35,149 bases of DNA. It comes from an uncultured Nitrospiraceae bacterium (lineage in GTDB: Bacteria; Nitrospirota; Thermodesulfovibrionia; Thermodesulfovibrionales; SM23-35). The position numbers and the translations under genes are program-made. Position 1 is the first letter of the stretch. Each line of letters begins with the position of its first letter. Shown here piece by piece: positions 1,197-34,882 of the stretch. The DNA lies in NCBI GenBank assembly GCA_964553535.1, contig CAZKLK010000003.1:1-35149 (forward strand), given 5' to 3'. The notes beneath the pieces are model-generated. The model was not told the origin of the DNA, ran no database searches, and saw nothing but the letters and a program-made list of their open reading frames with translations.

Positions 1197-2561
1197 ATGG
1201 GCACAAGTGAAATAAGCGTGAAAGAAAATACATCTGCCCTTGCAACAATTGGCTTAATAGCCACAGGGGATGGTTCACCGAATAAAAAAGAACCGGACAT
1301 GATATCAGATTTTGCGAGGGAGGTACAAAACCTTATTTCAAGTTCAGGAGGAATATTGTCAAGACTTTATGAGGAACCTCAAATTCTACACTCGGCCAGC
1401 GCAACATACCTTGAATCCCTAAGAAAAGATCTGAGTCAGATGGAAAATTTAATAGCTCAGTTCCTCGAGTTCTCGAAAGTTGGAGACGGAGAATGCGGGA
1501 CGATTGGAAAAGAGAATATCCTGCTGAAGAAAAGATTCAAGAAGAATAATTTTAAGGGAATCATTGGTGATTCATCAATAATGCAAAGCTTATATGAAAT
1601 GGTCGAAAAAGTTTCGGATACTGATACAACCATTCTCATAACAGGAGAGAGCGGGACGGGTAAGGAACTCATAGCAAAAAATATACATATCACCGGCAGA
1701 CGCGCTCAGGGTGCTTTTGTTCCATTGAATTGCGCTGCTATACCAAAGGATCTCCTTGAATCGGAACTATTTGGCCATGAGAAGGGGGCTTTTACCGGGG
1801 CACTCAACATGAGAGTAGGTCGTTTTGAACTTGCTCATGGGGGGACTTTGTTCCTTGACGAAGTCGGAGAATTAGAACCGTCTCTGCAGGTTAAACTGCT
1901 AAGAGTTCTCCAGGAACGTGAATTTGAGCGCGTAGGAGGCGTTAAGACAATAAAAGTAGATGTAAGAATTCTTGCTGCGACCAATAAGGACCTCGAACAG
2001 GCAATAAGGGATAACAGGTTCAGAGAGGATTTGTACTATCGACTTAATGTAATACCCCTCTCTATTCCGCCTCTCAGGGATAGGACTGAAGACATCCCGC
2101 TTCTCATCGATTATTTTAACCGTAAATATGCTTACAGTCGCGGGCGTGAGCCCCTCAAGTTTACACCTGATGCAATGAAATGCCTCATGAAATTTAGCTG
2201 GCCCGGCAATGTAAGGGAACTGGAGAATCTTGTCGAGAGATTGGTAATCCTTACAAGCGGCGCTTTTGTTAAAACTGCAGACCTGCCCGAGAAATTCAGT
2301 CAATATGCAGATTCCAAAAAACTATTAATTGCCGAGGCCCCCGAGTTGCATGATATTGCCATCCCGGAATTCGGCATAGATATCAATGCAATGGTGGGCA
2401 ACATGGAGAGGAATCTTATCCTCAAGTCCCTTGAAAAAACGGGATGGGTCAAAAACAGGGCAGCTAAACTGCTGGGTCTGAACAGAACTACACTCATTGA
2501 AAAGATGAAAAAAATGGGGATCGATCTCCAGAAAACAGTAACAAACACGCCAAATTATTAG
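1197..2561 (+). CDS. sigma54-dependent transcriptional activator (AAA+ EBP with Fis-type HTH) lacking a receiver domain
   Basis: Walker A GESGTGKE, the sigma54-contact loop GAFTGA, Walker B LFLDEVGE, the arginine-finger region, and a C-terminal HTH (RAAKLLGLNRTTLIEKMKKMGI). The N-terminal ~125 aa show no REC signature. Confidence 0.9.
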   Translation: MGTSEISVKENTSALATIGLIATGDGSPNKKEPDMISDFAREVQNLISSSGGILSRLYEEPQILHSASATYLESLRKDLSQMENLIAQFLEFSKVGDGECGTIGKENILLKKRFKKNNFKGIIGDSSIMQSLYEMVEKVSDTDTTILITGESGTGKELIAKNIHITGRRAQGAFVPLNCAAIPKDLLESELFGHEKGAFTGALNMRVGRFELAHGGTLFLDEVGELEPSLQVKLLRVLQEREFERVGGVKTIKVDVRILAATNKDLEQAIRDNRFREDLYYRLNVIPLSIPPLRDRTEDIPLLIDYFNRKYAYSRGREPLKFTPDAMKCLMKFSWPGNVRELENLVERLVILTSGAFVKTADLPEKFSQYADSKKLLIAEAPELHDIAIPEFGIDINAMVGNMERNLILKSLEKTGWVKNRAAKLLGLNRTTLIEKMKKMGIDLQKTVTNTPNY

Positions 2562-2562
2562 A

Positions 2563-2582
2563 CATGTCAGATAACTGACATG
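2563..2582. promoter_or_regulatory. Perfect 8-bp inverted repeat CATGTCAG-ATAA-CTGACATG
   Basis: Read directly. It begins 2 nt after the EBP stop codon, has no T-tract after it, and lies ~45 nt upstream of the sigma54-like element at 2625. Confidence 0.5.
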
Positions 2583-2624
2583 GCCGCAATCCTGAATATC
2601 TTTTAGAATCAATAAATTATGTAT

Positions 2625-2639
2625 AGGCATGGTTGTTGC
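2625..2639 (+). promoter_or_regulatory. sigma54 -24/-12 promoter candidate (AGGCAT-GGTTG-TTGC)
   Basis: Matches TGGCAC-N5-TTGC in GG, CA, spacing and TTGC. It sits directly upstream of the TPR gene. Confidence 0.6.
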
Positions 2640-2646
2640 TTAGAGC

Positions 2647-4452
2647 GTGTTTATGACAAAGGTGTTACTTGCGTTTCTAATCCTGTTCACCTCGTCTGCT
2701 TACGGGGTTGAAAAAACCGTTTATCATCCACTCGAAAAAGCGAAAGAATATATTGATGCAAACAAGCCTGCAGATGCAATAAAGGTGTTGTCTGCATATT
2801 CCCCCCCGGTCGACGAACTCCCCCTGTACCACCAGTATTATGCCAGGGCCTACGAGTTGTCCAAAAGGAGATTTGATGCTATTGCACATCTCCGATTGGC
2901 ATATCTTTATTCCCCTAAGGGAACGATGAAGGAACTACTGCTGATCGAGAGGGCTGAGGCCTATTATCATATGGGGTTTTATGATGAGGCTGCTATAAGT
3001 TTCAGAATAGCTCTCAGACAATTCCCGGGTTCTGATTCTGCTAATAGGGCGTATCTGGGTCTCGGGGATTCCCTTTACAAGCTTGGCGACTATAGCGAAT
3101 CAAAAGCGTTTTATGAAAAAGCAGGCACCTCGTCGCGTGCTCTCACCGGGATAGCAAATGCTCTAAACGCAATGGGAAGATATCATGATGCATATTTCTT
3201 GTATCAAGAGATAATCATAAAAGAAAGAGGATATCTCCAGTCTTCACAGGAGACACTTTATAGAATTGGCGAGAACTTCATGGAGAACGGGGAATTTTCA
3301 AATGCAAAATTCTATCTGATGTCTGTTACTGATCGCTCCCTGAAATACAAAGCCGCTTTTCTGCTCGGCAGGATTGCATTGCAGGAATCGCAAACAAATG
3401 ATGCTGTCAAATATTTCAATCAGGCATTACTGTCACCGGAGAGATACATCAAGCGTCTGGCGCTTCTTTCCATCGCTGACGTGTACATAAAACTCGGGAA
3501 ACAAGGGGAAGCAAAGTCCAGGCTTCTGGAGGTGCGGAATAAATACCCATACGGGAAAGCATATGATAAGGCTCTGCTTACGCTGTTCCGGTTATACAAA
3601 AAGGAAGGGAATGCTCATGAAGCGGGAGCCATAATAAAGGAACTTGTTTTGAGACGGTTTCCCGAACCGGAAGCCCTTGACGAATTCGAAAGTATGGTTC
3701 TCGAGGCAAAGGAACAAAACAAGCATGAATTCCTGAGACTCTGGAGGGCGGGGGGATATTCATTGCTTGACCCCGGGCGTTCTGATACGCTCTTGAAGAT
3801 TGCTGCCGGATTACGGGATTCCGGGAAACCATTCCTTGATCTGTGCACATGGCTTTCACAATACGGTATGGGCGATTCGGCAGTGCAGAGCCGTCTTTTC
3901 CTTGCAGATATCTATGCGGATTTAGGCGATGTGGGGAATGCTTCAAGGCATCTGCAAAAAATAAAGGGCGCTAGTGATGAGATAACCCGGATTAAGGCAA
4001 AAGTAATCTACACTAACAAAGATTATCCGCGCGCACTTGAGGCAATTCTCTCGATCAAGGATATAAGGCCGGAAGATATTTTGCTCCTTTCCCATCTGTC
4101 GCAGTTGATACCGGATAACCGGAGGGCACTCGATTTCTATGAGAGAGGATTGATCGTGTCGGATTCCTACCCAAGGACATACGTCCGTTTCGCAGATATA
4201 CTCTATGACGGAGGCAGAAAAACGGAAGCGCTGCAATATTATAAGACGGCTGTTTTGTTGCATCAGAAAGGGAAGGAACTCGCACGAAGTGAACTCGAAT
4301 GGTCTCTTTACAGAATTTCAATGCTTGCCCGGGATGAAGAATCTGCTGATGCGCTGAAGAGCATGCAAACAGGGAATGGGATATTCAGCAGGTTTTCAGT
4401 GATCGGACTCAAAGAGTCGAACATAACCAGAATGATGAAAAGGATGTTTTAA
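2647..4452 (+). CDS. Secreted/periplasmic tetratricopeptide (TPR) repeat protein
   Basis: N-terminal signal peptide (KVLLAFLILFTSSAYG|VEK). At least 10 TPR-like 34-aa units, e.g. AEAYYHMGFYDEAAISFRIALRQFPGS and AYLGLGDSLYKLGDYSESKAFYEKA. An ATG at 2653 is an alternative start. Confidence 0.8.
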   Translation: MFMTKVLLAFLILFTSSAYGVEKTVYHPLEKAKEYIDANKPADAIKVLSAYSPPVDELPLYHQYYARAYELSKRRFDAIAHLRLAYLYSPKGTMKELLLIERAEAYYHMGFYDEAAISFRIALRQFPGSDSANRAYLGLGDSLYKLGDYSESKAFYEKAGTSSRALTGIANALNAMGRYHDAYFLYQEIIIKERGYLQSSQETLYRIGENFMENGEFSNAKFYLMSVTDRSLKYKAAFLLGRIALQESQTNDAVKYFNQALLSPERYIKRLALLSIADVYIKLGKQGEAKSRLLEVRNKYPYGKAYDKALLTLFRLYKKEGNAHEAGAIIKELVLRRFPEPEALDEFESMVLEAKEQNKHEFLRLWRAGGYSLLDPGRSDTLLKIAAGLRDSGKPFLDLCTWLSQYGMGDSAVQSRLFLADIYADLGDVGNASRHLQKIKGASDEITRIKAKVIYTNKDYPRALEAILSIKDIRPEDILLLSHLSQLIPDNRRALDFYERGLIVSDSYPRTYVRFADILYDGGRKTEALQYYKTAVLLHQKGKELARSELEWSLYRISMLARDEESADALKSMQTGNGIFSRFSVIGLKESNITRMMKRMF

Positions 4453-5612
4453 TGTCTGTCAAACTGCTCAATGAAGCGTTTCAGCATTTTACAGATGCAT
4501 CAAAGAGTCTTGAGACATATTATTTGACACTGCAGGAAAACGTTGAGCATCTCGCGAGCGAACTGGAAAAGGCCAACAATGAACTGAAAAGAGCCTTGTC
4601 AGAAGCAGAGAGAAATAAAGATTACCTCAACGCGGTGCTCCAGAGTCTTGAGGAAGCAATCATAACAGTCGACTCAAATGACAAAATAACGGTCATGAAT
4701 AAATCTGCGGAAGATCTTTTCGGAGTGCATCTCAGGACCGCTTTGGGCATGCCTTTCGATGATCTTGAATGTTCAATCGGAAGTGAAGAATCTGAAACAA
4801 TACTCTCTGTCAACGGCAGGAGGTACTCCATTATTCTCTCCCGTTCACCAATAGTTGATGTAAATAATAACTTGAGGGGAACGGTAATCCTGATTAAGGA
4901 TGTAACCCGGCTTAAGGAACTGGAGATACAGCAGGAAAGAAATCAGCGACTGATCGCCATGGGTGAGATGGCAGCGAAGATCGTTCACGAGATACGAAAC
5001 CCCCTCTGCAGCATGGAATTATTCGCCAGCATGCTCGCAGGGGAGCTTGACAGGGAATCCCACAAAGAACTTGCGGGAGGCATTTCGATTGGCATAAGCA
5101 ATCTCAACAATATACTGAAAAATATGCTCTTCTTCGCAAGGCCACATAAACCATCAATGCAATGGATACAAATCGGGAGAGTAGTGGATGACTCGGTCAG
5201 GATTTTTGTTCCGCTTATGGAAACCCGAAGGGTTAAAGTGGAAAATTCAGCTACGAGCCATGAAATTTTCGGCGATTCAGAGCTTCTGAAGCAGGTCATA
5301 ATCAACATAATCAGTAACGCCATTCAGTCGATGACGGACGGCGGCAAGGTGGTCATTAAAACAAGGCGTGAGCCGCAATTTGTTGTGGTTGATATTTGTG
5401 ATAGCGGGGAAGGAATACTCCATGATGACATGGAGAAGATTTTTAATCCGTTCTTCAGCCGAAAAGATACCGGTACAGGACTCGGGCTTACTATCGCTTC
5501 GACCATAATGCAGGCCCACGGGGGATATATCAAGGTAAGCAGCGAAAAAGGAAAGGGAAGCATATTCAGCTTGTATTTCCCCTCCCATAAGTGGATCAGG
5601 GATACGGGATGA
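4452..5612 (+). CDS. Soluble PAS-domain sensor histidine kinase (FlrB/FleS/FlgS-like)
   Basis: N-terminal coiled coil and a PAS-like segment (LEEAIITVDSNDKITVMNKSAEDLFG). H-box HEIRNPL, N-box IISNAIQS, G1 DSGEGI, G2 GTGLGL. No transmembrane segment. Its start overlaps the TPR stop (TAATG). Confidence 0.9.
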   Translation: MSVKLLNEAFQHFTDASKSLETYYLTLQENVEHLASELEKANNELKRALSEAERNKDYLNAVLQSLEEAIITVDSNDKITVMNKSAEDLFGVHLRTALGMPFDDLECSIGSEESETILSVNGRRYSIILSRSPIVDVNNNLRGTVILIKDVTRLKELEIQQERNQRLIAMGEMAAKIVHEIRNPLCSMELFASMLAGELDRESHKELAGGISIGISNLNNILKNMLFFARPHKPSMQWIQIGRVVDDSVRIFVPLMETRRVKVENSATSHEIFGDSELLKQVIINIISNAIQSMTDGGKVVIKTRREPQFVVVDICDSGEGILHDDMEKIFNPFFSRKDTGTGLGLTIASTIMQAHGGYIKVSSEKGKGSIFSLYFPSHKWIRDTG

Positions 5613-6898
5613 AACCGGTGCTTGTTGTGGATAATGATCCGCAGATGGGGGTGGCTCTTATGAATGCCATCCAGCGTTTGGGTTACGACGTAGTTGTGAG
5701 CAACAGCGGGCATGATGCTATGTCTAAACTGCACCAGTACAATTTCTCATTAGTTGTGACCGACATGAGGATGCCCAAGATGGATGGCTTAATGTTACTG
5801 AGGGAGATACGAAGAACCGTCGGAAACCTTCCTGTTATTGTCATAACAGGTTTTGGAACAATCGAGAATGCAGTGGAGGCTATGAAAGAAGGGGCGCAGG
5901 ATTACCTGATGAAACCCTTTTCATATGATATCCTCAAGAAAGCCATTGAGGCAACAATGATGAGAACAGAATATGGGAGGGAGATCCTCACTGCAAGCAC
6001 TGAGATGAAAAAGATTATCACTGTTGCAGGAAATCTTGCAGCCAGTGATATCACTGTACTCATCCAAGGGGAGAGCGGAACCGGCAAAGAGCTTCTTGCA
6101 CGTTATATCCATAGATTGAGCAGCAGGTCAAAAAGAGCTTTTATTGCAGTAAATTGTGCTGCCATACCTGATACGCTTCTCGAATCTGAACTTTTTGGTC
6201 ATGAGAAGGGATCATTCACCGGAGCAGTAGACAGGAAAATAGGCAAATTTGAACTCGCTCAGTCAGGAAGTATTCTTCTTGATGAGATTGGGGAAATGTC
6301 GATGATACTTCAGGCGAAACTCCTCAGGGTGCTGCAGGAGAGGGAAATAGACAGGGTCGGGGGAAGAGAGCCTATACCTGTAGATGTACGGATAATAGCG
6401 ACAACGAATAAAGATTTGCTCAAAGAGTGCAAGGAAGGTCGTTTCAGGGAAGATCTTTATTACAGGCTCAATGTTTTCCCCATTAAAGTCCCTCCCCTCA
6501 GGGAACGCCCGGGTGATATATCACTTCTTACAGAGCACTTTATCGAGAAGTTTTCCGGAATTTCAGGAAAAGCGATAAGGGGAATCACCTCCGGTGCATT
6601 CACCCATCTCAAGGGGAAACAATGGCGCGGTAATGTGAGGGAACTTGAAAATGTTATACAGAGAGCTGTATTCCTCTGCAAAGGTGCGGAGATAGAATCA
6701 GACGATCTTCTGCTGGAAGGCGAGAGTGCTACAGATGCAATAAGAGGGAAGATAAGGGATATGGAAAAGGAATTAATCCTGCAGACACTCAAAGATATGC
6801 ACGGGAACAAGTCAAAGGCCGCGAAGGTCCTTGGTGTAAGTGTCAGAACTATACGGAACAAACTGCATGAATATGGGAAAAATTTTCCTGCGGGATAA
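5609..6898 (+). CDS. NtrC-family sigma54-dependent response regulator (REC-AAA+-HTH; FlrC/FleR/FlgR-like)
   Basis: REC domain with DND and VVTDMRMPKMDG. AAA+ domain with GESGTGKE and GSFTGA. C-terminal HTH KAAKVLGVSVRTIRNKL. The ATG at 5609 forms an ATGA overlap with the kinase stop. The track ORF starts at a GTG at 5591. Confidence 0.9.
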   Translation: MKPVLVVDNDPQMGVALMNAIQRLGYDVVVSNSGHDAMSKLHQYNFSLVVTDMRMPKMDGLMLLREIRRTVGNLPVIVITGFGTIENAVEAMKEGAQDYLMKPFSYDILKKAIEATMMRTEYGREILTASTEMKKIITVAGNLAASDITVLIQGESGTGKELLARYIHRLSSRSKRAFIAVNCAAIPDTLLESELFGHEKGSFTGAVDRKIGKFELAQSGSILLDEIGEMSMILQAKLLRVLQEREIDRVGGREPIPVDVRIIATTNKDLLKECKEGRFREDLYYRLNVFPIKVPPLRERPGDISLLTEHFIEKFSGISGKAIRGITSGAFTHLKGKQWRGNVRELENVIQRAVFLCKGAEIESDDLLLEGESATDAIRGKIRDMEKELILQTLKDMHGNKSKAAKVLGVSVRTIRNKLHEYGKNFPAG

Positions 6899-26585: not shown

Positions 26586-27328
26586 AGGGAGTGACCGGGG
26601 GAAAGAATATGCTTAACGAGGAAGACAAAGAAAAGATCATCAACGACTTTCTCCCCTTCATAAAGTATACCGCATACAGATTAGCATGGAGATTACCTCC
26701 CCATCTTACTGTCAAGGATCTCATGAGTGTCGGAATCATCGGCCTTCTTGAAGCCCTCAACCGGTACCGTGAAGGCGAGGTTAAGATCAATACCTTTGTA
26801 GAATACCGGATACGGGGCGCCATGCTCGATGAACTCAGGGCTCATGATCCCCTGTCAAAGACCATGAAAAAGAAAATAAGCTCTGTCAAAAAAACGTACG
26901 AGGACATTGAAAAAAAACTCGGCCGGGCCCCGGAACCTGAAGAAGTGGCAGAAGCTCTCGATATCGACCTCGATGAACATTACAGGATCATGCAGAGTTC
27001 GCATACCGGCGTCACGTTGAGATTTGAGGCATTTGCTAAAAGCAGAGAAGAAGACCATGACTCACGCATCATGGAATGCATCCCTGACGAGAGTGCCAGA
27101 ACCCCACTTGAGATATATGAGCAGAATGACATGATGAAGGCACTGACCCGGCTGATAGATAGACTTCCGGAACGGGAGAGGCTTATCCTTTCCCTGTATT
27201 ACCGGGAAGAGATGACCATGAAAGAGATTGGCAAGGTGCTCAATCTTACTGAAGGGAGAGTATGCCAGCTGCACAGCCAGGCGATTACCCGCCTGAAGGC
27301 AGGATTTGAAGCACATTCCGCAGTCTAA
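26582..27328 (+). CDS. fliA: Flagellar sigma factor sigma28 (FliA)
   Basis: Region 2 (DLMSVGIIGLLEALNRY, FVEYRIRGAMLDELR) and region 4 HTH (MKEIGKVLNLTEGRVCQLHSQAITRLK). ~240 aa, directly after flhG. Confidence 0.92.
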   Translation: MKGVTGGKNMLNEEDKEKIINDFLPFIKYTAYRLAWRLPPHLTVKDLMSVGIIGLLEALNRYREGEVKINTFVEYRIRGAMLDELRAHDPLSKTMKKKISSVKKTYEDIEKKLGRAPEPEEVAEALDIDLDEHYRIMQSSHTGVTLRFEAFAKSREEDHDSRIMECIPDESARTPLEIYEQNDMMKALTRLIDRLPERERLILSLYYREEMTMKEIGKVLNLTEGRVCQLHSQAITRLKAGFEAHSAV

Positions 27329-27352
27329 AGTGCGGATGACATGTTCCGATAA
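27326..27352 (+). promoter_or_regulatory. sigma28 (FliA)-type promoter candidate TAAA-N15-TCCGATAA
   Basis: TAAA (27326-27329, which includes the fliA TAA stop), exactly 15 nt, then TCCGATAA (27345-27352). This matches the TAAA-N15-GCCGATAA consensus at 11 of 12 specified positions. Confidence 0.6.
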
Positions 27353-29249
27353 GATTGATAAAGACATGACTCTCACAGCAAAAAGACTTTTTCGATTGAT
27401 CAAAGACCTTGCGCATGCTGATGCATCGCGGAGAAGATCGGCGGCGGAAGCTTTGTCAGGAGCCGATGAAAGGGCTATCTATCACCTTATCAAGCTGCTG
27501 AAGGATGAAAACCCAGGCGTTCAGGATGCAGCAATGCATTCCATCATCTCCATAGGCGGCGAGGTGACTGCATATATGATTCTGCCGCTCCTGAGGGGGG
27601 AGCCGTATCTGAGAAATACTGCAGTGATCATCCTGAAAGAGATAGGAACAGCGGCTGTCCCTATGCTTCAGGAACTCTTTTCCGATAAAGACAATGATGT
27701 CCGCAAGTTTGCCATTGACCTCATCTCGGAGATAGGATACTGCACCGATCACGCTCATCTCCTTGCGATACTCAGGGGCGACCCTGATGTTAATGTGAGA
27801 GTCGCAGCGGCAAAGGCGATCGGGTCTCTCCGCTACAATGATGGAGCACCACATCTGATCGAGGCCCTAAGGGATGAAGAATGGGTTTGCTTCGCAGCTC
27901 TCGAGTCACTTGCTAAAATCGCAGATGAATCAGCAATTGAAGAGATAACATCACTGTTGATGATGCAATCAGAAGCAGTGAGATATGCCGCAATCAATGT
28001 CCTCGGCACAATAGGTTCATTTCAGGCGTGTGATGCCCTTGCAAGGCATGCAGAACAGGCGGAGGGCATCGAAAAGATGGCAGCCATCAGGAGCCTCATA
28101 CAGATCGGCTTTATACCGAAGATGCCGGGGATTTCCGATTCCCTGATTGAATTGTTTACCGATGGTGATTGGGATGATCGTATCATTGCCCTGCGTGGAT
28201 TGGTTGAAATCAAGGAAGACCGGGCACTCCCACACATCATTGATATTGCCGGATCGCTCGATCAATCAGAGCCGGAGAGTGAAGAAAGATTGCATATTAT
28301 TAGGGATACCCTCAGAAAATTCGGATGCACCGTGGGTTTCACGGATATTCTCCACAATCCGTCACTCAGGTATCGTGGCAGAACACTCGCAATAGACATA
28401 ATCGGTGAGATGGGATGTAAGAACACCGTACCCTCCCTCATGAAATTGATAAATGACAGATTGAGCGGCGTCCGTTGCGCGACTGTCAGGGCGCTCGGGA
28501 AAATGAAAATATACGAGGCGAAGCGGGAGATTATAAATGCCATCCAGGACGGTGACGGGCATGTCAGGAGGGAGGCGGTTACAGCATTGGCTCAGATCGG
28601 TGACGCGGAATCCGTTGAACCCCTCTTGAAACTCCTTGAATCGGAGAAATATAACGATGTCCTTGAAGAGGCGGTGAAAACACTCCTTACGATTGATCCG
28701 GCATCCCTGTTCTCAAATCTCGACAGATACAGTGATACCGTAAAGGAAATAATCGCCATGTACTCACAGAACCGAGATGTTCTCCTCAGACTCTCAGAGG
28801 ATATGAACCTCGGTGTAAGAATAGCAGCGCTTTCGAGAATCGGTACAATCCACGACGAAAGTGCATATATAAAGCTTAAAGAGGCCCTGCACGATTCGCA
28901 ACCGGAGGTCAGAAGTGTTGCTATACGGGGGATGGCTGATCTGCACCGCTATGAGGAGTTAACGCCGGTTCTGAAAGACACCAACGACTGGGTAAGGCTT
29001 CAGGCAGTAAAGGCATTCGGACGATCCTCAAACGAGGATATGCTTGGTGTGCTTGCATCCTCCCTCGATGACGGCGCACTCCCGGTTGTCCTTTCAGCGA
29101 TTGAGGCGATCGCTAACATCGGCAGTGAGAAAGCACTCGATCTCATTACTCCCCTTCTCCAGCATCATGACCAGGAAATACGGGAAAAGGCGTCCGAGGC
29201 AATCCGTTTCATTCAGAATGCAGAAACAATCGGGAATCAGACGTGGTAA
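27336..29249 (+). CDS. HEAT-repeat (PBS-lyase HEAT-like) protein, ~630 aa
   Basis: Roughly 15-20 tandem ~31-aa units of the form D..VR..A..ALG.IG...A...L..LL.D, e.g. DGHVRREAVTALAQIGDAESVEPLLKLLESE and DPDVNVRVAAAKAIGSLRYNDGAPHLIEALRDE. No other domain was seen. The start could be GTG 27330, ATG 27336 or ATG 27366. Confidence 0.85.
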   Translation: MTCSDKIDKDMTLTAKRLFRLIKDLAHADASRRRSAAEALSGADERAIYHLIKLLKDENPGVQDAAMHSIISIGGEVTAYMILPLLRGEPYLRNTAVIILKEIGTAAVPMLQELFSDKDNDVRKFAIDLISEIGYCTDHAHLLAILRGDPDVNVRVAAAKAIGSLRYNDGAPHLIEALRDEEWVCFAALESLAKIADESAIEEITSLLMMQSEAVRYAAINVLGTIGSFQACDALARHAEQAEGIEKMAAIRSLIQIGFIPKMPGISDSLIELFTDGDWDDRIIALRGLVEIKEDRALPHIIDIAGSLDQSEPESEERLHIIRDTLRKFGCTVGFTDILHNPSLRYRGRTLAIDIIGEMGCKNTVPSLMKLINDRLSGVRCATVRALGKMKIYEAKREIINAIQDGDGHVRREAVTALAQIGDAESVEPLLKLLESEKYNDVLEEAVKTLLTIDPASLFSNLDRYSDTVKEIIAMYSQNRDVLLRLSEDMNLGVRIAALSRIGTIHDESAYIKLKEALHDSQPEVRSVAIRGMADLHRYEELTPVLKDTNDWVRLQAVKAFGRSSNEDMLGVLASSLDDGALPVVLSAIEAIANIGSEKALDLITPLLQHHDQEIREKASEAIRFIQNAETIGNQTW

Positions 29250-29280: not shown

Positions 29281-30090
29281 ATGATACTTCGTGATTCGAC
29301 ATTCAAGCAGCTCAGGGATTTAATCTATCAGAAGTGCGGGATTTTTGTCACCGATTCAAAGAAGTATTTTATAGAAACCAGACTGACTAAAAGACTTCAG
29401 GAAAACGGTCTTTCGAATTTTGAAGATTACCTGTATCTGATCCAATACAGCCTGAACGGAAAAGAAATTGACCGGCTGTTCGATGCCATAACGACAAACG
29501 AGACATTTTTTTTCCGGGAATCCCAGCAGACCGACCTTTTCATTGATGTTATCGCGCCGAAAGTTATAGAGCAGAATGGAAAGAAGGATATAAGGGTATG
29601 GTCGGCAGCTTGTTCAACCGGAGAAGAGCCATATACCCTCGCAATGCTTCTTAAGGAAAAACAGGTTGCTGTCCGTTCCGAGGTGAGCGCTTCTGATATC
29701 AGTAAAGGCGTTATCGAATCTGCCAGACGGGGAGTCTATAATCTATATTCCGTAAGAAATGTGCCTGGAGCATATCTCAATAAATATTTCACCGCACATG
29801 GGCAGACCTTCGAACTTTCTCCATCTATTAAAAATCAGGTCAACTTCCAGCAGATCAATCTCCTGGATGAGAAAAAGATGATGTTAATGACAGGAAAGGA
29901 CGTCATTTTCTGCCGCAATGTGCTTATCTATTTTGATGATAAGGCAAAGCAGAAAGTTGTATCACTTCTGTATAACTGTCTGAAGCCGAAGGGATTTCTC
30001 TTTATAGGAGCATCGGAGAGTCTCCACAGCATCACGAGGGCATTCAGGCCTGTCATTATAAACAAAGTCATTGTGTACCAGAAGGTGTAA
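29281..30090 (+). CDS. cheR: Chemotaxis protein methyltransferase CheR
   Basis: FKQLRDLIYQKCGI, TTNETFFFRE, and the SAM site IRVWSAACSTGEEPYTLAMLL. The ATG at 29281 is preferred. The track ORF from 29044 overlaps the HEAT gene. Confidence 0.93.
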   Translation: MILRDSTFKQLRDLIYQKCGIFVTDSKKYFIETRLTKRLQENGLSNFEDYLYLIQYSLNGKEIDRLFDAITTNETFFFRESQQTDLFIDVIAPKVIEQNGKKDIRVWSAACSTGEEPYTLAMLLKEKQVAVRSEVSASDISKGVIESARRGVYNLYSVRNVPGAYLNKYFTAHGQTFELSPSIKNQVNFQQINLLDEKKMMLMTGKDVIFCRNVLIYFDDKAKQKVVSLLYNCLKPKGFLFIGASESLHSITRAFRPVIINKVIVYQKV

Positions 30091-30092
30091 TC

Positions 30093-30485
30093 ATGAAGAT
30101 TATGATTGTAGACGACTGTCAGACGACGAGAAAGATTCTCAGCCTTTACCTCAAGTCCAAAGGATTTGAGGTGATAACTGCGGATAACGGTCTTGATGCA
30201 ATAGAGAAACTTGCCACCAATACTGTTCAAATGATCCTGACGGACCTCAACATGCCTTACATGGACGGCGTCGAGCTGGTAAGAACCATACGGGCTGATC
30301 CCAACTGGGCCTCACTGCCGATGCTCATGGTAACGACGGAGGCTGATCCTGAAGAGCGCACAAGGGCTTTCCAGGCTGGTGCAAATGGCTATATTGTAAA
30401 ACCCGTAACTGCTGAAAATGTGACACATAATATCAAGACCATCCTGCGGGAGTTCTTTGCAAGGGAGGGAAGGGACAATGCCTGA
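30093..30485 (+). CDS. CheY-like single-domain response regulator (first of two)
   Basis: [19 protein letters not shown] and YIVKP supply the full set of REC catalytic residues. No output domain. Confidence 0.9.
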
Positions 30486-30867
30486 TTATAAGATGAAGAT
30501 TCTCGTAGTGGATGATTTTTCGACAATGAGGCGTATCACCAAGAATATACTCAAGCAGATCGGCTTTGAAAATATCGAGGAGGCAGAGGATGGCGCTCAA
30601 GCATATGCGAAACTGAAAATGGGCGGCTTCGGTTTTGTCATATCTGACTGGAACATGCCCAACATGGACGGATTAGATCTTCTCAAGGCTGTCAGGGCTG
30701 ATCCGGCCCTAAAGAATATTCCCTTCCTCATGGTTACCGCTGAGGCGGAAAAGGATAAGGTGATTGAGGCCATCAGATCGGGTGTGAACAATTATGTTGT
30801 TAAACCTTTTACTGCTGAGGTACTGAAGGAGAAGATGGACAGGATATTCGAGAAACTCGGCAAGTAG
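30478..30867 (+). CDS. cheY: Chemotaxis response regulator CheY
   Basis: [38 protein letters not shown] and [12 protein letters not shown] closely match canonical CheY. The ATG at 30478 follows GGGAGGGAAGGGA and overlaps the upstream stop by 8 nt. Confidence 0.93.
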
Positions 30868-30908: not shown

Positions 30909-32645
30909 ATGCCTGATGAGATGGAAGAGATAATCGGGGAGTTCATCACAGAGGCTGAGGAGTCTCTGGACAGGATAGACCCGCTCTTTATCGGGCTCGA
31001 GGCAAAAGGATATGACAAGGATATCCTGAACGAGATATTCAGGAGCATGCATACAATCAAAGGGGCTGCAGGGTTTCTTGGTTTCCAGTCTATCGTTGAT
31101 GTTGCGCACAGCTCTGAGAATATCCTCAAGAAACTCAGGGACGGGAACATCCCCCTTACAAAAAACCTCATTGACGCAGTTCTCAAAAGTGTGGACATGA
31201 TCAGGCTGCTTATTAAACGCATAAAGGACAAAGACCCCGAAAAGGAAGATATCACTTCCGTACTCAAAGAGCTTGATCATGCACTCACCGCATCATCGGA
31301 ACCGGCAGAGGCATACTCTGCATGTCCACCTGATACAATCATGCAGGAAACCGAAGATTTCGGTGATAGAACGGCTCTTCATGATTCCCAGGAACCTTGC
31401 AGTGAGAGGGGCGCACCGGAGCGTAAAGAACTGCTTCATACACTGCGGGTTGATATAAATAAAATCGACAAAGTGATGGATCTGGCAGGCGAAGTCGTGC
31501 TTGTGAGGAACAGGCTTGTAAACATCGTAAACGATCTCGGAAAGAGAGAGACGGAATTCCCGTTTGCGGAGAGCCTTAACGAAACAGTCGCTTTCCTCGA
31601 TCTCGTCACCACGGATATGCACCTTTCAATTGTGAAAATGCGCATGCAGCCCATTCAAAAGGTCTTCAGCAAATTCCCACGACTCGTGAGGGACATATCA
31701 GGCAATCTCGGGAAAGAGGTCAACCTCAGCATCTCCGGTGAGGACACCGAGGTTGACAAGTCGGTGATCGAACAGATTGGCGATCCGATGGTGCATATAA
31801 TACGGAATTCCATAGATCACGGCCTTGAATCCCCTGAGGAGAGGGAGGCAAAGAAGAAGCCGCGTAAAGGGAACATCGCGATCAGCGCCTATCAAAAAGG
31901 TAACCAGATTATTATCGAGGTATCTGATGACGGAAGAGGTATTGACATTGAGCGTGTCAAGAAAAAGGCAAGAGAAAAGTTGCTGATAACAGAAGAGGAA
32001 GCACAGCGCTTGACAGACGAAAGTGCCATAAATCTCATATTCGCCCCGGGGTTTTCGACTGCTGATTTTGCGACTGAACTGAGCGGCCGCGGTGTCGGTA
32101 TGGACGTGGTAAAGACCAATGTTTCCAAGCTCAACGGGTATGTCGAGGTAACAACCAGAAAAGATATCGGAACGACATTCAAAATAACCATTCCACTTAC
32201 ACTGGCTATCATCCAGGCCCTTATGGTCAAAACAAGCGGTTCCCACTACGCAATCCCCCTCTCTCCTGTAGAAGAAATACTCAAGGTATCGAATAGGGAT
32301 ATCACGGATGTGATGGGGCAGAAGGTTCTCGATATCAGGGGGAAAGTCTGTCCGTTTGTGGAACTGTCGGATATACTGGCGAACGGGGGGCCAAATCATA
32401 CAGATTTCCGCTACGCGGTTGTCGTATCGGTAGGAGAGAAAAAATTCTGTCTGGCAGTCGATGAACTCCTCGGGTTGGAGGAGGTATTTATAAAGGCAAT
32501 CAAGGGAATCGATGCAGTTTCACCCTATACACTCGGCGCAACGATAGCGGGAGATGGCAAGGTCGTTCTGATACTCGATCTTGCGGGGATATCGAGAAAC
32601 ATATTCGGGAGGATGAAAATAGAACACTCAGGGAGAACAATATGA
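30909..32645 (+). CDS. cheA: Chemotaxis histidine kinase CheA (P1-P3-P4-P5, no P2)
   Basis: HPt FRSMHTIKGAAGFLGF. A ~45-aa linker leads straight into the dimerisation region LRVDINKIDKVMDLAGE. N-box HIIRNSIDHG, G1 DDGRGID, G2 GRGVGMD, and a CheW-like P5 domain. Confidence 0.95.
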   Translation: MPDEMEEIIGEFITEAEESLDRIDPLFIGLEAKGYDKDILNEIFRSMHTIKGAAGFLGFQSIVDVAHSSENILKKLRDGNIPLTKNLIDAVLKSVDMIRLLIKRIKDKDPEKEDITSVLKELDHALTASSEPAEAYSACPPDTIMQETEDFGDRTALHDSQEPCSERGAPERKELLHTLRVDINKIDKVMDLAGEVVLVRNRLVNIVNDLGKRETEFPFAESLNETVAFLDLVTTDMHLSIVKMRMQPIQKVFSKFPRLVRDISGNLGKEVNLSISGEDTEVDKSVIEQIGDPMVHIIRNSIDHGLESPEEREAKKKPRKGNIAISAYQKGNQIIIEVSDDGRGIDIERVKKKAREKLLITEEEAQRLTDESAINLIFAPGFSTADFATELSGRGVGMDVVKTNVSKLNGYVEVTTRKDIGTTFKITIPLTLAIIQALMVKTSGSHYAIPLSPVEEILKVSNRDITDVMGQKVLDIRGKVCPFVELSDILANGGPNHTDFRYAVVVSVGEKKFCLAVDELLGLEEVFIKAIKGIDAVSPYTLGATIAGDGKVVLILDLAGISRNIFGRMKIEHSGRTI

Positions 32646-33826
32646 TGCAGCATATAGGATTCAAGCTCAAAGGCAATGAATACTCAATTCCTGTAATGAA
32701 AGTCCGGGAAATCATTCATGTCCCGCCAATCACGAAAATACCGCAAGCCCCTTCGTATATTGAGGGGATCACCAACCTCAGGGGGAATATTATCCCGGTT
32801 GTCAATCTCAAGAAGCTCGTGGGTATTGACCATGATGGAGACAAAGGGGATAAAGTGATTGTTATCTCATCAGGGAATGTCATCTATGGTGTACTTGTTG
32901 ATGGGGTGACAGGGGTTATCGATATCGAGGAATCTTCCATAGAACCAACCGAAGGGTTTTTAAATGGACACCGTGAGCAGGTCAGCGGCGTTGCCAGGGT
33001 TTCTGACAGGCTCGTCATTCTCCTGAATACGAGAACTCTGATACCGCATGAGGACACGAATCTCTTCGGGGGTTTCATAGATGTTCTGCCGGGCAACGAG
33101 GAGGGTGAAATGGTGAAAACCGCCCGGTCAATGTCAGGAGAAGCGAAGGGAGGGGAATTGCACGCCATAAAGGATTTTTTCGAAAAACAGGGCATATCCA
33201 TCAATGACCCGCGCTACATTGTATTTGATGACATGATCGCCTTCATGAATGCACTGGCGGTCCATGATTATGAAAGAGCTCATGTCTCAATTCAGAATAT
33301 CATAAAGAAGGGGCAGCATGACCTCTTTCAGGAAATAGGGAAGATTACAAGAAAGCTTCATGATGCCCTTAGCGGGTTCAAGGAGGTTATTGATCCGAAG
33401 TTCAAAGAGATAGCCACTGTAACAATGCCCCATGCTATTGATAGTCTCCAATTCGTTATTGACAGGACGGAGGAGGCAACACACAAGACCCTGGAGATAG
33501 TTGAAAAGTATATTCTGATGATGGATGACCTCGCTTCCCATATAAGAAATATAAAAGAGCCGGAAGGTTCGGTGAAATATCTGCGGGATTTTAAGAATAA
33601 TCTTGAAGACGATCTGACAGAGGTACTTACAACGCAATCCTTTCAGGATCTTACCGGTCAGACAATAAAAAAGGTCATTAACCTTGTGGGAGACCTCGAG
33701 GAAGAGTTAATGCGTCTGATTACTACTTTCGGAGTGAAGGGGGAGCAGGCTAAAACAGAAACAAAAGAACCTGAAAAGGTATCCCAGGCTGGTGTTGATG
33801 ACCTTTTAAAGGACTTCGGATTTTAA
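32642..33826 (+). CDS. CheW-domain / CheZ-like phosphatase fusion protein
   Basis: Residues 1-~137 form a CheW domain (FKLKGNEYSIPVMKVREII...IEGITNLRGNIIPVVNLKKL...LVILLNTRTL). The C-terminal ~200 aa align by eye with E. coli CheZ: IGKITRKLHDAL, the catalytic QSFQDLTGQTIKK (D and Q retained, nt 33647-33661), and a terminal VDDLLKDFGF that resembles the CheY-binding peptide VDDLLDSLGF. Confidence 0.85.
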   Translation: MMQHIGFKLKGNEYSIPVMKVREIIHVPPITKIPQAPSYIEGITNLRGNIIPVVNLKKLVGIDHDGDKGDKVIVISSGNVIYGVLVDGVTGVIDIEESSIEPTEGFLNGHREQVSGVARVSDRLVILLNTRTLIPHEDTNLFGGFIDVLPGNEEGEMVKTARSMSGEAKGGELHAIKDFFEKQGISINDPRYIVFDDMIAFMNALAVHDYERAHVSIQNIIKKGQHDLFQEIGKITRKLHDALSGFKEVIDPKFKEIATVTMPHAIDSLQFVIDRTEEATHKTLEIVEKYILMMDDLASHIRNIKEPEGSVKYLRDFKNNLEDDLTEVLTTQSFQDLTGQTIKKVINLVGDLEEELMRLITTFGVKGEQAKTETKEPEKVSQAGVDDLLKDFGF

Positions 33827-33829
33827 CCG

Positions 33830-34882
33830 ATGATAAAAGTCCTCATTGTTGACGATTCCGCCTTCATGAGAAACGCCATCTCCAGCATGCTTTCTTCAGA
33901 ACAGGAGATAATGATCGTCGGTACAGCGAAGGATGGAATTGAAGCGCTGGAGAAGGTGGCAAGCCTAAAACCGGATATTGTCACTATGGATATCGAGATG
34001 CCGAGGATGGATGGCATCTCGGCATTAAAGCAGATAATGCAAAAGGATCCTGTTCCGGTGATTATGATAAGTTCATTGACATCGGAAGGCGCAAAGGCGA
34101 CACTGGATGCACTCGAACTTGGCGCTGTCGACTTTATCCCCAAAAACCTGTCTGACCTCTCCATCAATATTGTCAAGATAAAGGAAATTCTTATCAGCAA
34201 GGTAAAGCAGATAGCAAAAAGAAATATAATAAACAAGGGGATAAGGATATCTCCCGTCCAGAGGAGTCAGGAGGCGCCTCAGCGTATTGCGCCGGTCATA
34301 ACTTCTGAGCGGAGGATAGGCATCGTCTCCATAGGAACCTCTACCGGGGGGCCAAAGGCTCTCCATGAAATACTGCCGAAAATGCCGAAAGATTTTCCTG
34401 TACCGATCATCATAGCCCAGCATATGCCCCCGGCATTCACCGGACCATTTGCCGAACGCCTGAACCAGATTTGCAATATTGTTGTCAAGGAAGCTGAGGA
34501 GGGGGAGCCCGTAAGACCTGGTATTGCCCTGATAGCACCGGGCAGAGGAAACATGAGAGTGAGAAGGCAGCGCGCGATAGAAACCGTCGTAACGATTTCT
34601 GAAAACAGGGAGGATTTTATTTATCGGCCTTCTGTTGATGCCCTAATGCTTTCTGTTGCTGAATGTTTCCCCGGAAGAGCCCTCGGCGTCATACTCACCG
34701 GAATGGGTAACGACGGACTGAAAGGGCTTACCGCCCTGAAAAAGACAGGCGGAAGGATTTTCGCGCAAAACGAGGAGACATGCATTGTGTATGGAATGCC
34801 GAAGGCTGTCGTAGATGCAGGAATTGCAGATAAAGTCCTGCCGGTTGGAGAGATGGCGGGAGAGATCATAAACTCGGTCTGA
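33830..34882 (+). CDS. cheB: Chemotaxis protein-glutamate methylesterase CheB
   Basis: REC (KVLIVDDSAFMR, VTMDIEMPRMDG) plus an esterase domain with GTSTGGP (Ser), AQHMP (His) and GMGNDG (Asp). Confidence 0.95.
   Translation: MIKVLIVDDSAFMRNAISSMLSSEQEIMIVGTAKDGIEALEKVASLKPDIVTMDIEMPRMDGISALKQIMQKDPVPVIMISSLTSEGAKATLDALELGAVDFIPKNLSDLSINIVKIKEILISKVKQIAKRNIINKGIRISPVQRSQEAPQRIAPVITSERRIGIVSIGTSTGGPKALHEILPKMPKDFPVPIIIAQHMPPAFTGPFAERLNQICNIVVKEAEEGEPVRPGIALIAPGRGNMRVRRQRAIETVVTISENREDFIYRPSVDALMLSVAECFPGRALGVILTGMGNDGLKGLTALKKTGGRIFAQNEETCIVYGMPKAVVDAGIADKVLPVGEMAGEIINSV

What the first reader, a model, noticed from the sequence alone, without database searches (positions are those of the whole stretch)
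32642..33826. Single polypeptide fusing a CheW coupling domain to a CheZ-type CheY-P phosphatase
The N-terminal ~137 aa form a complete CheW domain. After a ~55-aa linker, the remainder matches E. coli CheZ in several ways: the N-helix IGKITRKLHDAL (versus IGSLTRMLRDSL), the active-site box QSFQDLTGQ (versus QDFQDLTGQ, retaining the catalytic Asp and Gln), and the extreme C-terminal CheY-binding peptide VDDLLKDFGF (versus VDDLLDSLGF). It is the only stand-alone CheW-type domain in this operon, and it is ATGA-coupled to cheA. In E. coli, CheZ reaches the receptor array indirectly through CheA-short. Here the phosphatase would be hard-wired into the array as the coupling protein itself, placing kinase and phosphatase in the same lattice. 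I do not know of a characterised CheW-CheZ fusion. Novelty needs a database check.
Basis: partly seen in the sequence, partly recalled or inferred. Interest (0 to 1): 0.75.

Follow-up and report, generated by a model that had tools for sequence, protein, structure and literature searches.

The report
CheW-CheZ fusion: array-tethered CheY phosphatase
This gene really does encode one protein joining a receptor-array docking domain (CheW) to an intact CheZ-type phosphatase that switches off the chemotaxis signal; the design is conserved in hundreds of Nitrospirota genomes, is already catalogued by automatic annotation, and has never been studied experimentally.

Summary
The ORF at 32642-33826 (+) encodes 394 aa. 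It has a complete CheW domain (Pfam E 1e-35; fold matches E. coli CheW, TM 0.81). It also has a complete CheZ module (Pfam E 7e-32) that aligns with E. coli CheZ residues 16-214 and keeps the catalytic Asp/Gln (D336, Q340) and the C-terminal CheY-binding peptide.

It is not an assembly artefact. The same protein was assembled from two independent sequencing runs. Full-length orthologues occur in at least 80 species-level genomes (282 hits), mostly Thermodesulfovibrionales and Dissulfurispiraceae, including an isolate and closed chromosomes. Wherever upstream sequence is held, cheA lies directly upstream. Divergent members (33-50% identity) occur in other gene contexts.

About a quarter of related loci carry a stand-alone cheW nearby.

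The "55-aa linker" is really two parts: a ~32-aa tether of nearly fixed length, and a conserved ~55-aa helical extension that also occurs in stand-alone CheZ-like proteins.

Most likely it is an auxiliary array component, analogous to CheV, that places the phosphatase next to the kinase. The architecture is auto-annotated and mentioned once in the literature as rare, but it is uncharacterised. Interest is moderate.

The parts
32642..33826 (+). cheW-cheZ fusion ORF (394 aa including the first of two tandem ATGs; stop TAA at 33824-33826)
   Evidence: Searches show the ORF. One search gives Pfam CheW plus CheZ. One search lists 809 homologues, and the best 120 all carry both Pfam domains. One search shows an identical protein in two independent runs.
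32651..33049 (+). CheW domain (aa 4-136)
   Evidence: Pfam PF01584, E 1.4e-35. phmmer to E. coli CheW 2HO9, E 5e-22; that alignment places E23, R47 and G48 opposite E. coli E38, R62 and G63. These three residues are invariant in 94 orthologues. Foldseek match to CheW in the E. coli core signalling unit 6S1K_C, E 9e-12, target TM 0.81.
33053..33148 (+). Tether (aa 138-169), predicted disordered and of nearly constant length
   Evidence: AF2 pLDDT is below 50 for aa 143-177. This is one of the two least conserved segments (0.64; the second linker is 0.63). The stretch measured from aa 137 through 169 (one residue longer than this segment) is 34-36 residues long in 89 of 94 orthologues.
33149..33316 (+). 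Conserved helical N-extension of the CheZ module (aa 170-225); lies outside the Pfam CheZ model
   Evidence: AF2 predicts helices at 170-182, 190-206 and 210-223. Mean column conservation is 0.70. The same region is present at the N-terminus of stand-alone CheZ-like proteins P0207, P0212, P0219 and P0204.
33317..33727 (+). CheZ core (aa 226-362): N-helix plus long helical hairpin
   Evidence: Pfam PF04344 starts at aa 227. Aligns to E. coli CheZ. AF2 predicts helices at 227-249, 263-302 and 308-362.
33635..33661 (+). Active-site box QSFQDLTGQ (aa 332-340). Catalytic D336 is the codon at 33647-33649 and Q340 the codon at 33659-33661.
   Evidence: Aligned to E. coli QDFQDLTGQ, D143/Q147. Q332, Q335, D336, T338, G339 and Q340 are invariant in 94 orthologues.
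33728..33784 (+). Second flexible linker (aa 363-381)
   Evidence: pLDDT below 50 for aa 363-379. Conservation 0.63. Length is 18-23 residues, measured from aa 363 through 382.
33785..33823 (+). C-terminal CheY-binding helix, QAGVDDLLKDFGF (aa 382-394)
   Evidence: Aligned with the E. coli CheZ C-terminus VDDLLDSLGF. Q382, L388, L389, G393 and F394 are invariant. AF2 predicts a helix at 382-391.
30909..32645 (+). cheA (578 aa; Hpt, dimerisation, HATPase and P5/CheW-like domains; no P2 detected). Translationally coupled to the fusion.
   Evidence: Pfam domains. The NCBIfam CheA alignments start at aa 158-161. A CheA-type ORF lies directly upstream of the fusion in every related locus that holds upstream sequence.
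30478..30867 (+). cheY, the presumed substrate (129 aa, enteric type)
   Evidence: NCBIfam PRK10610 CheY equivalog scores 197.1 bits against a cut-off of 189. phmmer to CheY 2FKA gives E 3.7e-54 over the full length, keeping the YVVKPFTA segment.
30093..30485 (+). Second single-domain response regulator (130 aa), CheY-like
   Evidence: Pfam Response_reg, E 1e-29. It falls below the CheY equivalog cut-off (110 bits against 189).
33830..34882 (+). cheB (REC plus methylesterase), 3 nt downstream of the fusion
   Evidence: Pfam domains.
29281..30090 (+). cheR
   Evidence: Pfam CheR_N plus CheR.

Best explanation
The gene encodes a CheY-P phosphatase with a built-in address label.

The N-terminal CheW domain docks into the CheA-P5/CheW rings at the cytoplasmic tips of the chemoreceptor array. 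It is made next to CheA from a translationally coupled gene. A ~32-aa flexible tether of conserved length leads to a CheZ module: an N-extension, an N-helix, a helical hairpin, a second linker and a C-terminal peptide. By analogy with E. coli CheZ, this module pairs with the CheZ module of a neighbouring fusion protein to form the four-helix bundle. The C-terminal peptide captures CheY-P made by CheA. D336 and Q340 are inserted into the CheY active site to accelerate hydrolysis.

The effect is the one E. coli achieves non-covalently through CheZ binding to CheA-short. Kinase and phosphatase are co-localised, which gives fast signal termination and a spatially uniform CheY-P level.

The fusion is most likely an additional array component alongside an ordinary CheW, as CheV (CheW-REC) is in other bacteria. 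It is probably not the sole coupling protein.

Shown here: the domain identities, the intact motifs, and the conservation of the fusion and of its linkage to cheA. Inferred: array docking, dimerisation, catalysis and the physiological effect.
For: - Both domains score far above the Pfam thresholds.
- The CheW half aligns with and superposes on E. coli CheW as seen inside the core signalling unit. E23, R47 and G48 are invariant and align with E. coli E38, R62 and G63. From my own knowledge, those E. coli positions are known to matter for CheA or receptor binding.
- The CheZ half aligns end to end with E. coli CheZ. The catalytic D and Q and the C-terminal LL..GF are invariant across 94 orthologues.
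- The predicted secondary structure reproduces the CheZ layout.
- A bona fide enteric-type CheY is encoded two genes upstream.
- The operon follows flhA-flhF-flhG-fliA inside a flagellar cluster, so the output is flagellar.
- cheA is adjacent to the fusion in every related locus with upstream sequence.
- The whole protein, including the tether length, is under purifying selection. Full-length orthologues occur at 53-73% identity, and the tether is 34-36 aa in 89 of 94.
- In a Thermodesulfobacteriota MAG the fusion sits between cheY and cheA-cheB-motA-motB. From my own knowledge of Pseudomonas and Vibrio clusters, that is the slot cheZ occupies there. This argues that the fusion plays the CheZ role.
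- Stand-alone CheWs co-occur with the fusion.
- CheZ localisation via CheA-short, and the consequences of kinase-phosphatase co-localisation, are established for E. coli: Cantwell 2003 (cited in PMC2577667), PMC2673030 and PMC1447658.
Against: - There is no biochemical or localisation data for any member.
- The AF2 monomer model is weak (mean pLDDT 60, pTM 0.35). Foldseek did not retrieve CheZ for the helical half.
- Dimerisation and docking geometry were not modelled.
- The protein scores far below the NCBIfam equivalog cut-offs for enteric CheW (79 against 260) and CheZ (69 against 257), so it is a distant relative of both.
- The hairpin is about 18 residues shorter than in E. coli.
- For the window's own genome, it is unknown whether another CheW or CheV exists.
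Confidence: 0.7

Rival explanations
1. This is the strong form of the first reader's idea. The fusion would be the only CheW-type adaptor of this pathway. Every core signalling unit would then carry stoichiometric phosphatase, and coupling and dephosphorylation could not be separated.
For: It is the only CheW-type domain besides CheA-P5 in the 35-kb window. It is always next to cheA. Most of the closest loci (L001-L019) show no other cheW within 8 kb. The CheW domain keeps residues aligned with the E. coli interface positions.
Against: The closed chromosome OY970295.1 has the identical operon and also a stand-alone CheW beside an MCP, 8.5 kb away. Of 81 loci, 20 have an extra CheW within 8 kb. 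A large stand-alone CheW family exists in Thermodesulfovibrionales; 11 of its members have a longest-contig length equal to that of a fusion-bearing contig, a proxy for shared contigs. The divergent member L085 has two CheW genes nearby. Only about 17-21 kb per genome was inspected, so the true co-occurrence is probably higher.
Confidence: 0.15
2. The phosphatase would be regulated, not merely tethered. Because it hangs on CheW inside the lattice, receptor signalling state would modulate CheZ activity or CheY capture reciprocally with the kinase. Alternatively, the CheZ C-peptide would serve as the array's CheY docking site, replacing the missing CheA P2 domain.
For: CheA here has no detectable P2 domain. 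The tether length is nearly invariant, and the 170-225 extension is conserved without a known role. The hairpin-tip region (IRN.KEPE) is conserved.
Against: This is purely inferential. From general knowledge, many CheAs lack P2 without any such compensation. A constant linker length within one order may simply reflect shared ancestry. The extension also occurs in stand-alone CheZ-like proteins, so it is not specific to the fusion.
Confidence: 0.1
3. The fusion would be an artefact: two adjacent genes (cheW and cheZ) joined by a frameshift or a mis-assembly in this contig.
For: Rare split versions exist. P0246 is a 191-aa 'CheW' that ends in out-of-frame residues. In L051 the reading frame is interrupted, although the match continues.
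Against: An identical 394-aa protein was assembled from two different runs. All 80 genome loci returned (of 282 hits) match the query full-length or nearly so (79 over residues 1-3 to 393-394; L051 is cut at 366 by its contig end), and they include closed chromosomes and the isolate Thermodesulfovibrio sp. N1. The junction region itself is conserved and of constant length. Fusion members persist down to 33% identity.
Confidence: 0.01
4. The fusion would be a degenerate relic. One half would have lost its function, for example the CheW domain acting only as a folding or dimerisation appendage, or the CheZ half acting as a non-catalytic CheY-binding scaffold.
For: Both halves score well below the enteric equivalog thresholds. 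The hairpin is shortened.
Against: The catalytic D/Q, the C-peptide and the key CheW residues are invariant across 94 orthologues and are kept in members at 33-46% identity. Both halves have high column conservation, 0.74 to 0.86.
Confidence: 0.04

Closest known systems
E. coli/Salmonella CheZ (PDB 1KMI), localised to arrays through CheA-short
   Same: The layout is the same: N-helix, helical hairpin, flexible linker and C-terminal CheY-binding helix. The catalytic Asp/Gln box (QxFQDLTGQ) and the ...VDDLL..GF end are the same. The expected outcome is also the same: the phosphatase is concentrated where the kinase is.
   Different: Identity is only 26%. The hairpin is about 18 residues shorter. 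There is an extra conserved ~55-aa N-extension. The protein falls below the NCBIfam equivalog cut-off. Localisation would be covalent, through its own CheW domain, rather than through binding to an alternative-start CheA isoform.
CheV (CheW domain fused to a receiver domain)
   Same: A CheW-like domain is used as an array-docking module that carries a second signalling activity. It co-exists with ordinary CheW.
   Different: The passenger is a CheZ phosphatase, not a REC domain, and no REC domain is present. CheV acts in adaptation or as a phosphate sink, whereas this protein would actively dephosphorylate CheY-P.
Stand-alone CheW (E. coli 2HO9/6S1K; T. maritima 1K0S)
   Same: The domain is full length. 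It is 33-36% identical to solved CheWs, with target TM of 0.8, and keeps the conserved Glu/Arg/Gly positions.
   Different: It carries a 257-aa C-terminal extension. Stand-alone CheW paralogues exist in the same lineage.
cheY-cheZ-cheA-cheB-motCD clusters of Pseudomonas and Vibrio polar flagella (gene order from my own knowledge)
   Same: The chemotaxis genes follow flhA-flhF-flhG-fliA in a flagellar cluster with sigma-54 activators. In the Thermodesulfobacteriota MAG L086 the order is cheY, fusion, cheA, cheB, motA, motB.
   Different: In the window the fusion follows cheA instead of preceding it. A HEAT-repeat gene, cheR and a second receiver gene are inserted. CheZ is fused to CheW.
Rare CheW-domain architectures catalogued by Vass, Bourret and Foster (bioRxiv 10.1101/2022.05.07.491035)
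   Same: [quoted passage not shown] This protein is an instance of the CheW+CheZ class.
   Different: The paper gives no taxonomy, context, sequence analysis or function for that class. It fell below their abundance threshold and was not analysed.

Membership tests
CheW-like domain (Pfam PF01584) | Profile match above the curated threshold over the whole domain | tested here: met
   122.3 bits against a cut-off of 23.5; aa 4-136 cover model positions 2-136 of 138.
CheW-like domain (Pfam PF01584) | Two-subdomain beta-barrel fold, as in solved CheW structures | tested here: met
   AF2 predicts strands across aa 1-128 with pLDDT mostly 62-83 per 10-residue block (two blocks dip to 55 and 58). Foldseek matches 6S1K_C, 8C5V_E and 2CH4 at E 1e-11 with target TM of 0.80-0.82.
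CheW-like domain (Pfam PF01584) | Conserved Glu/Arg/Gly positions of E. coli CheW (E38, R62, G63) | tested here: met
   E23, R47 and G48 align to these positions and are invariant in 94 orthologues. Their functional importance in E. coli is from my own knowledge.
CheW-like domain (Pfam PF01584) | Binds CheA-P5 and receptor tips and supports kinase control | not testable with these tools
   Needs binding assays or complementation of a cheW mutant.
Enteric CheW equivalog (NCBIfam PRK10612) | Score at or above the equivalog cut-off | tested here: not met
   78.9 bits against a cut-off of 260. This is a CheW-type domain, not an orthologue of enteric CheW.
CheZ phosphatase (Pfam PF04344) | Profile match above the curated threshold | tested here: met
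   111.4 bits against a cut-off of 30.7, in two stretches from aa 227 to the C-terminus. Ten divergent fusion members also pass.
CheZ phosphatase (Pfam PF04344) | Catalytic Asp and Gln (E. coli D143, Q147) | tested here: met
   D336 and Q340 align with them and are invariant.
CheZ phosphatase (Pfam PF04344) | C-terminal amphipathic CheY-binding peptide at the very end of the protein | tested here: met
   VDDLLKDFGF aligns with VDDLLDSLGF. L388, L389, G393 and F394 are invariant. A helix is predicted at aa 382-391.
CheZ phosphatase (Pfam PF04344) | Long helical hairpin that dimerises into a four-helix bundle | tested here: inconclusive
   Long helices at 263-302 and 308-362 are predicted, but with pLDDT of about 50-78. 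Only a monomer was modelled, and Foldseek found no CheZ hit.
CheZ phosphatase (Pfam PF04344) | Accelerates CheY-P dephosphorylation | not testable with these tools
   Needs an enzyme assay with D336A and Q340A controls.
Enteric CheZ equivalog (NCBIfam PRK11166) | Score at or above the equivalog cut-off | tested here: not met
   68.6 bits against a cut-off of 257. It is a distant CheZ family member, not an enteric-type orthologue.
CheV | CheW domain followed by a receiver (REC) domain | tested here: not met
   No Response_reg hit in this protein. CheV is an analogy only.

The most novel reading that the evidence does not exclude
In this reading the fusion is more than an address label. Being built into the CheW positions of the lattice would make phosphatase activity, or CheY capture by the C-terminal peptide, depend on receptor signalling state. 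One receptor conformational change would then set kinase and phosphatase reciprocally. Alternatively, the tethered C-peptide would substitute for the missing CheA P2 domain as the array's CheY docking site. CheZ dimerisation between neighbouring CheW positions might also cross-link and stabilise the lattice.
Probability: 0.1. Interest if true: 0.75.

Novelty: new variant of a known kind. Interest (0 to 1): 0.4.

Why it matters
How CheY-P phosphatases are positioned relative to the kinase is a recurring theme in chemotaxis. E. coli uses CheA-short. Other species use other partners. Modelling work argues that co-localisation shapes the gain and spatial uniformity of the signal (PMC2673030, PMC1447658).

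A lineage that hard-wires CheZ to a CheW domain is a natural experiment that supports that design principle. It also offers a simple, genetically encoded way to ask what happens when the phosphatase is an obligate array resident. In addition, it extends intact CheZ-type phosphatases, together with an enteric-type CheY, well outside the Proteobacteria, into the Thermodesulfovibrionia.

The value is tempered in three ways. The architecture is already visible in domain databases and automatic annotations. It is a recombination of two well-understood modules. And the organisms are not genetically tractable.

Tried and rejected
1. Assembly or frameshift artefact. Rejected because of the independent assemblies and the 80 full-length orthologues.
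2. 'Sole CheW of the system'. Could not be tested for the window's own genome, because the contig ends 267 bp after cheB. It is contradicted in relatives.
3. Structural confirmation of the CheZ half. The AF2 monomer was of low confidence, and Foldseek returned only CheW and P5 hits. The CheZ assignment therefore rests on sequence evidence.
4. Literature searches. 'CheW-CheZ', 'CheZ-CheW', CheZ with Thermodesulfovibrio or Nitrospirae, and CheZ with 'fused' or 'CheW domain' gave no characterisation. The only find was the one-line catalogue mention. The Geobacter che paper reports no cheZ in Geobacter and has no mention of HEAT.
5. Wuichet and Zhulin 2010. I tried to read it under a PMC id recalled from memory, but no paper is held under that id. 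I could not check whether it lists this architecture or assigns the system to a class.
6. Taxonomic spread. The genome scan returned only the best 80 of 282 hits, so I cannot say how many of the remaining 202 are fusions or which phyla they represent. A few loci labelled Smithellaceae, 'Deltaproteobacteria' or 'Alphaproteobacteria' may be mis-binned Nitrospirota contigs or real transfers. This was not resolved.
7. PADLOC and PHROGs libraries were not run, as they are not relevant to a chemotaxis operon.


Full report
**1. What is in the sequence**

The + strand ORF 32642..33826 encodes 394 aa. Its ATG overlaps the cheA stop codon (ATGA, 32642-32645). A second in-frame ATG at 32645 would give MQHIGF..., matching the MQYIGF start of the orthologues. 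An AGGGAG Shine-Dalgarno sits 6-9 nt upstream. cheB begins 3 nt after the stop. The gene is therefore embedded in a tightly packed operon.

**2. Domain assignments**

- Pfam finds a complete CheW domain at aa 4-136 (E 1.4e-35).
- Pfam also finds CheZ from aa 227 to the C-terminus (E 7.1e-32). Both scores are several-fold above the curated thresholds.
- NCBIfam equivalog models for enteric CheW and CheZ hit but fall far below their cut-offs. Both halves are therefore distant family members, not enteric orthologues.
- The CheW half aligns with E. coli CheW (2HO9, E 5e-22). E23, R47 and G48 lie opposite E. coli E38, R62 and G63.
- In the AF2 model the CheW half superposes on CheW from the E. coli core signalling unit (6S1K_C, E 9e-12, target TM 0.81).
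- The CheZ half aligns with 1KMI chain Z at the N-helix and at the active-site box. D336 and Q340 align with the catalytic D143 and Q147.
- BLASTP aligns the CheZ half with E. coli CheZ residues 16-214, through to the terminal VDDLL..GF. Identity is 26% and E is 5e-12, and the hairpin is about 18 residues shorter.

**3. Anatomy between and within the halves**

The AF2 model is weak overall (mean pLDDT 60, pTM 0.35). That is expected for a monomer model of a two-module protein whose helical half is normally a dimer. Its secondary structure is still informative:

| Residues | Prediction |
|---|---|
| 1-135 | CheW barrel |
| 143-169 | disordered stretch |
| 170-223 | three helices |
| 227-249 | helix (CheZ N-helix) |
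| 263-302 and 308-362 | long hairpin |
| 363-381 | disordered stretch |
| 382-391 | terminal helix |

In a 94-sequence alignment, the tether (138-169) and the second linker are the least conserved parts (0.64 and 0.63). The hairpin, N-helix and C-peptide are the most conserved (0.83-0.86). The tether, measured from aa 137 through 169, is 34-36 residues long in 89 of 94 sequences.

The 170-225 segment is conserved (0.70). It also occurs at the N-terminus of stand-alone CheZ-like proteins (P0207, P0212, P0219, P0204). It is therefore an N-extension of this CheZ subfamily, not linker.

**4. Is the fusion real and how widespread is it?**

- The identical protein was assembled from two different sequencing runs.
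- Of 809 homologues in the 5.8-billion-protein set, the best 120 all carry both Pfam domains. Most are 390-416 aa, and a few shorter entries appear to be truncated. Many are named 'protein phosphatase CheZ' or 'CheW/CheZ' by NCBI or JGI pipelines.
- In the GTDB species-representative genomes, 282 encode a relative. Seventy-nine of the best 80 match essentially the whole query at 53-63% identity, and one (L051) is cut short by its contig end. Nearly all are Nitrospirota of the Thermodesulfovibrionales or Dissulfurispiraceae. They include the isolate Thermodesulfovibrio sp. N1 and closed chromosomes.
- The exhaustive search of 50%-identity representatives lists at least 15 full-length fusion clusters, down to 33% identity. 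Ten of them were checked with Pfam and all have CheW plus CheZ. One belongs to a Thermodesulfobacteriota MAG.
- Rare split versions look like frameshifts (P0246; L051).

An artefact is excluded.

**5. Genomic context**

The window is a flagellar supercluster. It contains, in order:

- sigma-54 activators and a PAS histidine kinase;
- flgBC, fliF/G/I/K, flgD/E, fliM/N, flhB/A/F/G and fliA;
- a 647-aa HEAT-repeat protein;
- cheR, a CheY-like receiver, cheY, cheA, the fusion and cheB.

The cheY product passes the NCBIfam equivalog threshold for enteric CheY (197 bits against 189) and aligns over its full length with Salmonella/E. coli CheY (E 4e-54). A suitable substrate is therefore at hand.

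The same gene order recurs in two near-complete genomes. In every related locus that holds upstream sequence, a CheA-type ORF ends just before the fusion.

Two divergent members sit in other contexts:
- In a Thermodesulfobacteriota MAG the order is cheY, fusion, cheA, cheB, motA, motB. From my own knowledge of Pseudomonas and Vibrio clusters, that is the slot normally held by cheZ.
- Another member sits beside a divergently transcribed receiver gene, with two cheW genes and a cheR-TPR nearby.

**6. Is it the coupling protein?**

Within the window, the only CheW-type domains are CheA-P5 and this one. But the window stops 267 bp after cheB.

In relatives, the evidence points the other way:
- The closed chromosome with the identical operon has a 169-aa CheW next to an MCP, 8.5 kb downstream.
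- Twenty of 81 loci have a stand-alone CheW within 8 kb.
- A search seeded with that CheW finds a large family of 146-175-aa CheWs in Thermodesulfovibrionales. Their longest-contig lengths coincide with fusion-bearing contigs in 11 cases. This is a proxy for being on the same contig, and it partly overlaps the loci.

The lineage therefore generally has ordinary CheW as well. The fusion is best seen as an auxiliary array resident, as CheV is elsewhere.

**7. Mechanism**

Shown here:
- two intact modules;
- invariant catalytic and CheY-binding residues;
- conserved linkage to cheA;
- an enteric-type CheY in the operon;
- a flagellar context.

Inferred from what is established for E. coli CheW and CheZ:
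- The CheW domain inserts into the P5/CheW rings.
- Two tethers of about 32 residues allow CheZ modules on neighbouring CheW positions to form the dimeric four-helix bundle.
- The C-peptide captures CheY-P.
- D336 and Q340 catalyse hydrolysis.

The result would be covalent co-localisation of phosphatase and kinase. This is the arrangement E. coli reaches through CheA-short (Cantwell 2003, cited in PMC2577667). Modelling papers link that arrangement to signal gain and uniformity (PMC2673030, PMC1447658). I give this explanation 0.7.

The 'sole adaptor' version gets 0.15. A receptor-state-regulated phosphatase, or a P2-substitute role, gets about 0.1. That last idea is prompted by the absence of a detectable P2 domain in this CheA. 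Loss of function in one half gets 0.04, and artefact 0.01.

**8. Comparison with the known, and novelty**

The protein is a member of the CheW-domain and CheZ Pfam families. It is not an equivalog of the enteric proteins, and it is not a CheV. Functionally it should work like CheZ localised by CheA-short.

The architecture is not unknown. Annotation pipelines label it. [quoted passage not shown] I found no paper that describes its distribution, context or function. I could not read Wuichet and Zhulin 2010.

I therefore rate it a new variant of a known kind: real, conserved, mechanistically sensible and uncharacterised, but a recombination of two well-known modules that is already visible in databases. 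Interest is 0.4.

Noticed in passing
window 30909-32645 (cheA), aa ~99-176: CheA has Hpt, dimerisation, HATPase and P5 domains but no detectable P2 (CheY-binding) domain. The P1-P3 spacer is about 78 aa and looks like low-complexity linker. The NCBIfam CheA alignments begin at aa 158-161. This could be relevant if the tethered CheZ C-peptide also helps recruit CheY.
   Followed up: partly
window 30478-30867: The CheY is strikingly enteric-like for a Nitrospirota organism. It passes the NCBIfam equivalog cut-off and aligns over its full length with Salmonella/E. coli CheY at E 4e-54. Together with CheZ, this hints at a shared origin or transfer of the cheY/cheZ pair with Proteobacteria.
   Followed up: partly
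window 27306-29249: A 647-aa protein made almost entirely of HEAT/PBS-lyase-type repeats sits between fliA and cheR. A HEAT-repeat gene holds the same position in two related genomes (621 aa in L081, 355 aa in L084). Its role in the che operon is unknown.
   Followed up: partly
window 33053-33316 (aa 138-225 of the fusion): The tether length is almost invariant (34-36 aa in 89 of 94 sequences). The following three-helix segment is conserved, has no Pfam model, and is shared with stand-alone CheZ-like proteins. Its function is unexplained.
   Followed up: partly
window 33542-33565 (aa ~301-308, hairpin tip): The apical turn of the CheZ hairpin (IRNxKEPE) is well conserved. From my own knowledge, in E. 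coli the hairpin tip is the region that binds CheA-short. A retained partner-binding site is possible.
   Followed up: no
window 1197-6898: Upstream of flgB lie a sigma-54 activator without a receiver domain (FleQ-like), a TPR protein, a PAS histidine kinase and a receiver-sigma-54 activator (FleS/FleR-like). With flhF-flhG-fliA, this resembles, from my own knowledge, the regulatory layout of Pseudomonas and Vibrio polar flagella.
   Followed up: partly
L086 6203-12925: A divergent fusion (426 aa, 34% identical) in a Thermodesulfobacteriota MAG lies in the order cheY, cheW-cheZ, cheA, cheB, motA, motB. A second hybrid CheA-REC and a hemerythrin-MCP are transcribed divergently.
   Followed up: partly
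L085 7536-13756: The most divergent fusion examined (P0255, 33% identity, Lys/Glu-rich) is not next to cheA. It pairs with a divergently transcribed receiver gene and lies near two cheW genes and a cheR-TPR. The taxon was not identified.
   Followed up: no
L081 9678-9986: In one relative, a 102-aa ORF with no Pfam hit is inserted between cheA and the fusion. The cluster there continues with a periplasmic-binding-protein gene, a rhodanese gene and an MCP gene before cheB.
   Followed up: no
L068, L069 and protein P0084: A few full-length fusions come from MAGs labelled Smithellaceae, 'Deltaproteobacteria' or 'Alphaproteobacteria', yet are 53-60% identical to the Nitrospirota proteins. These may be mis-binned contigs or recent transfers. 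This was not resolved.
   Followed up: no
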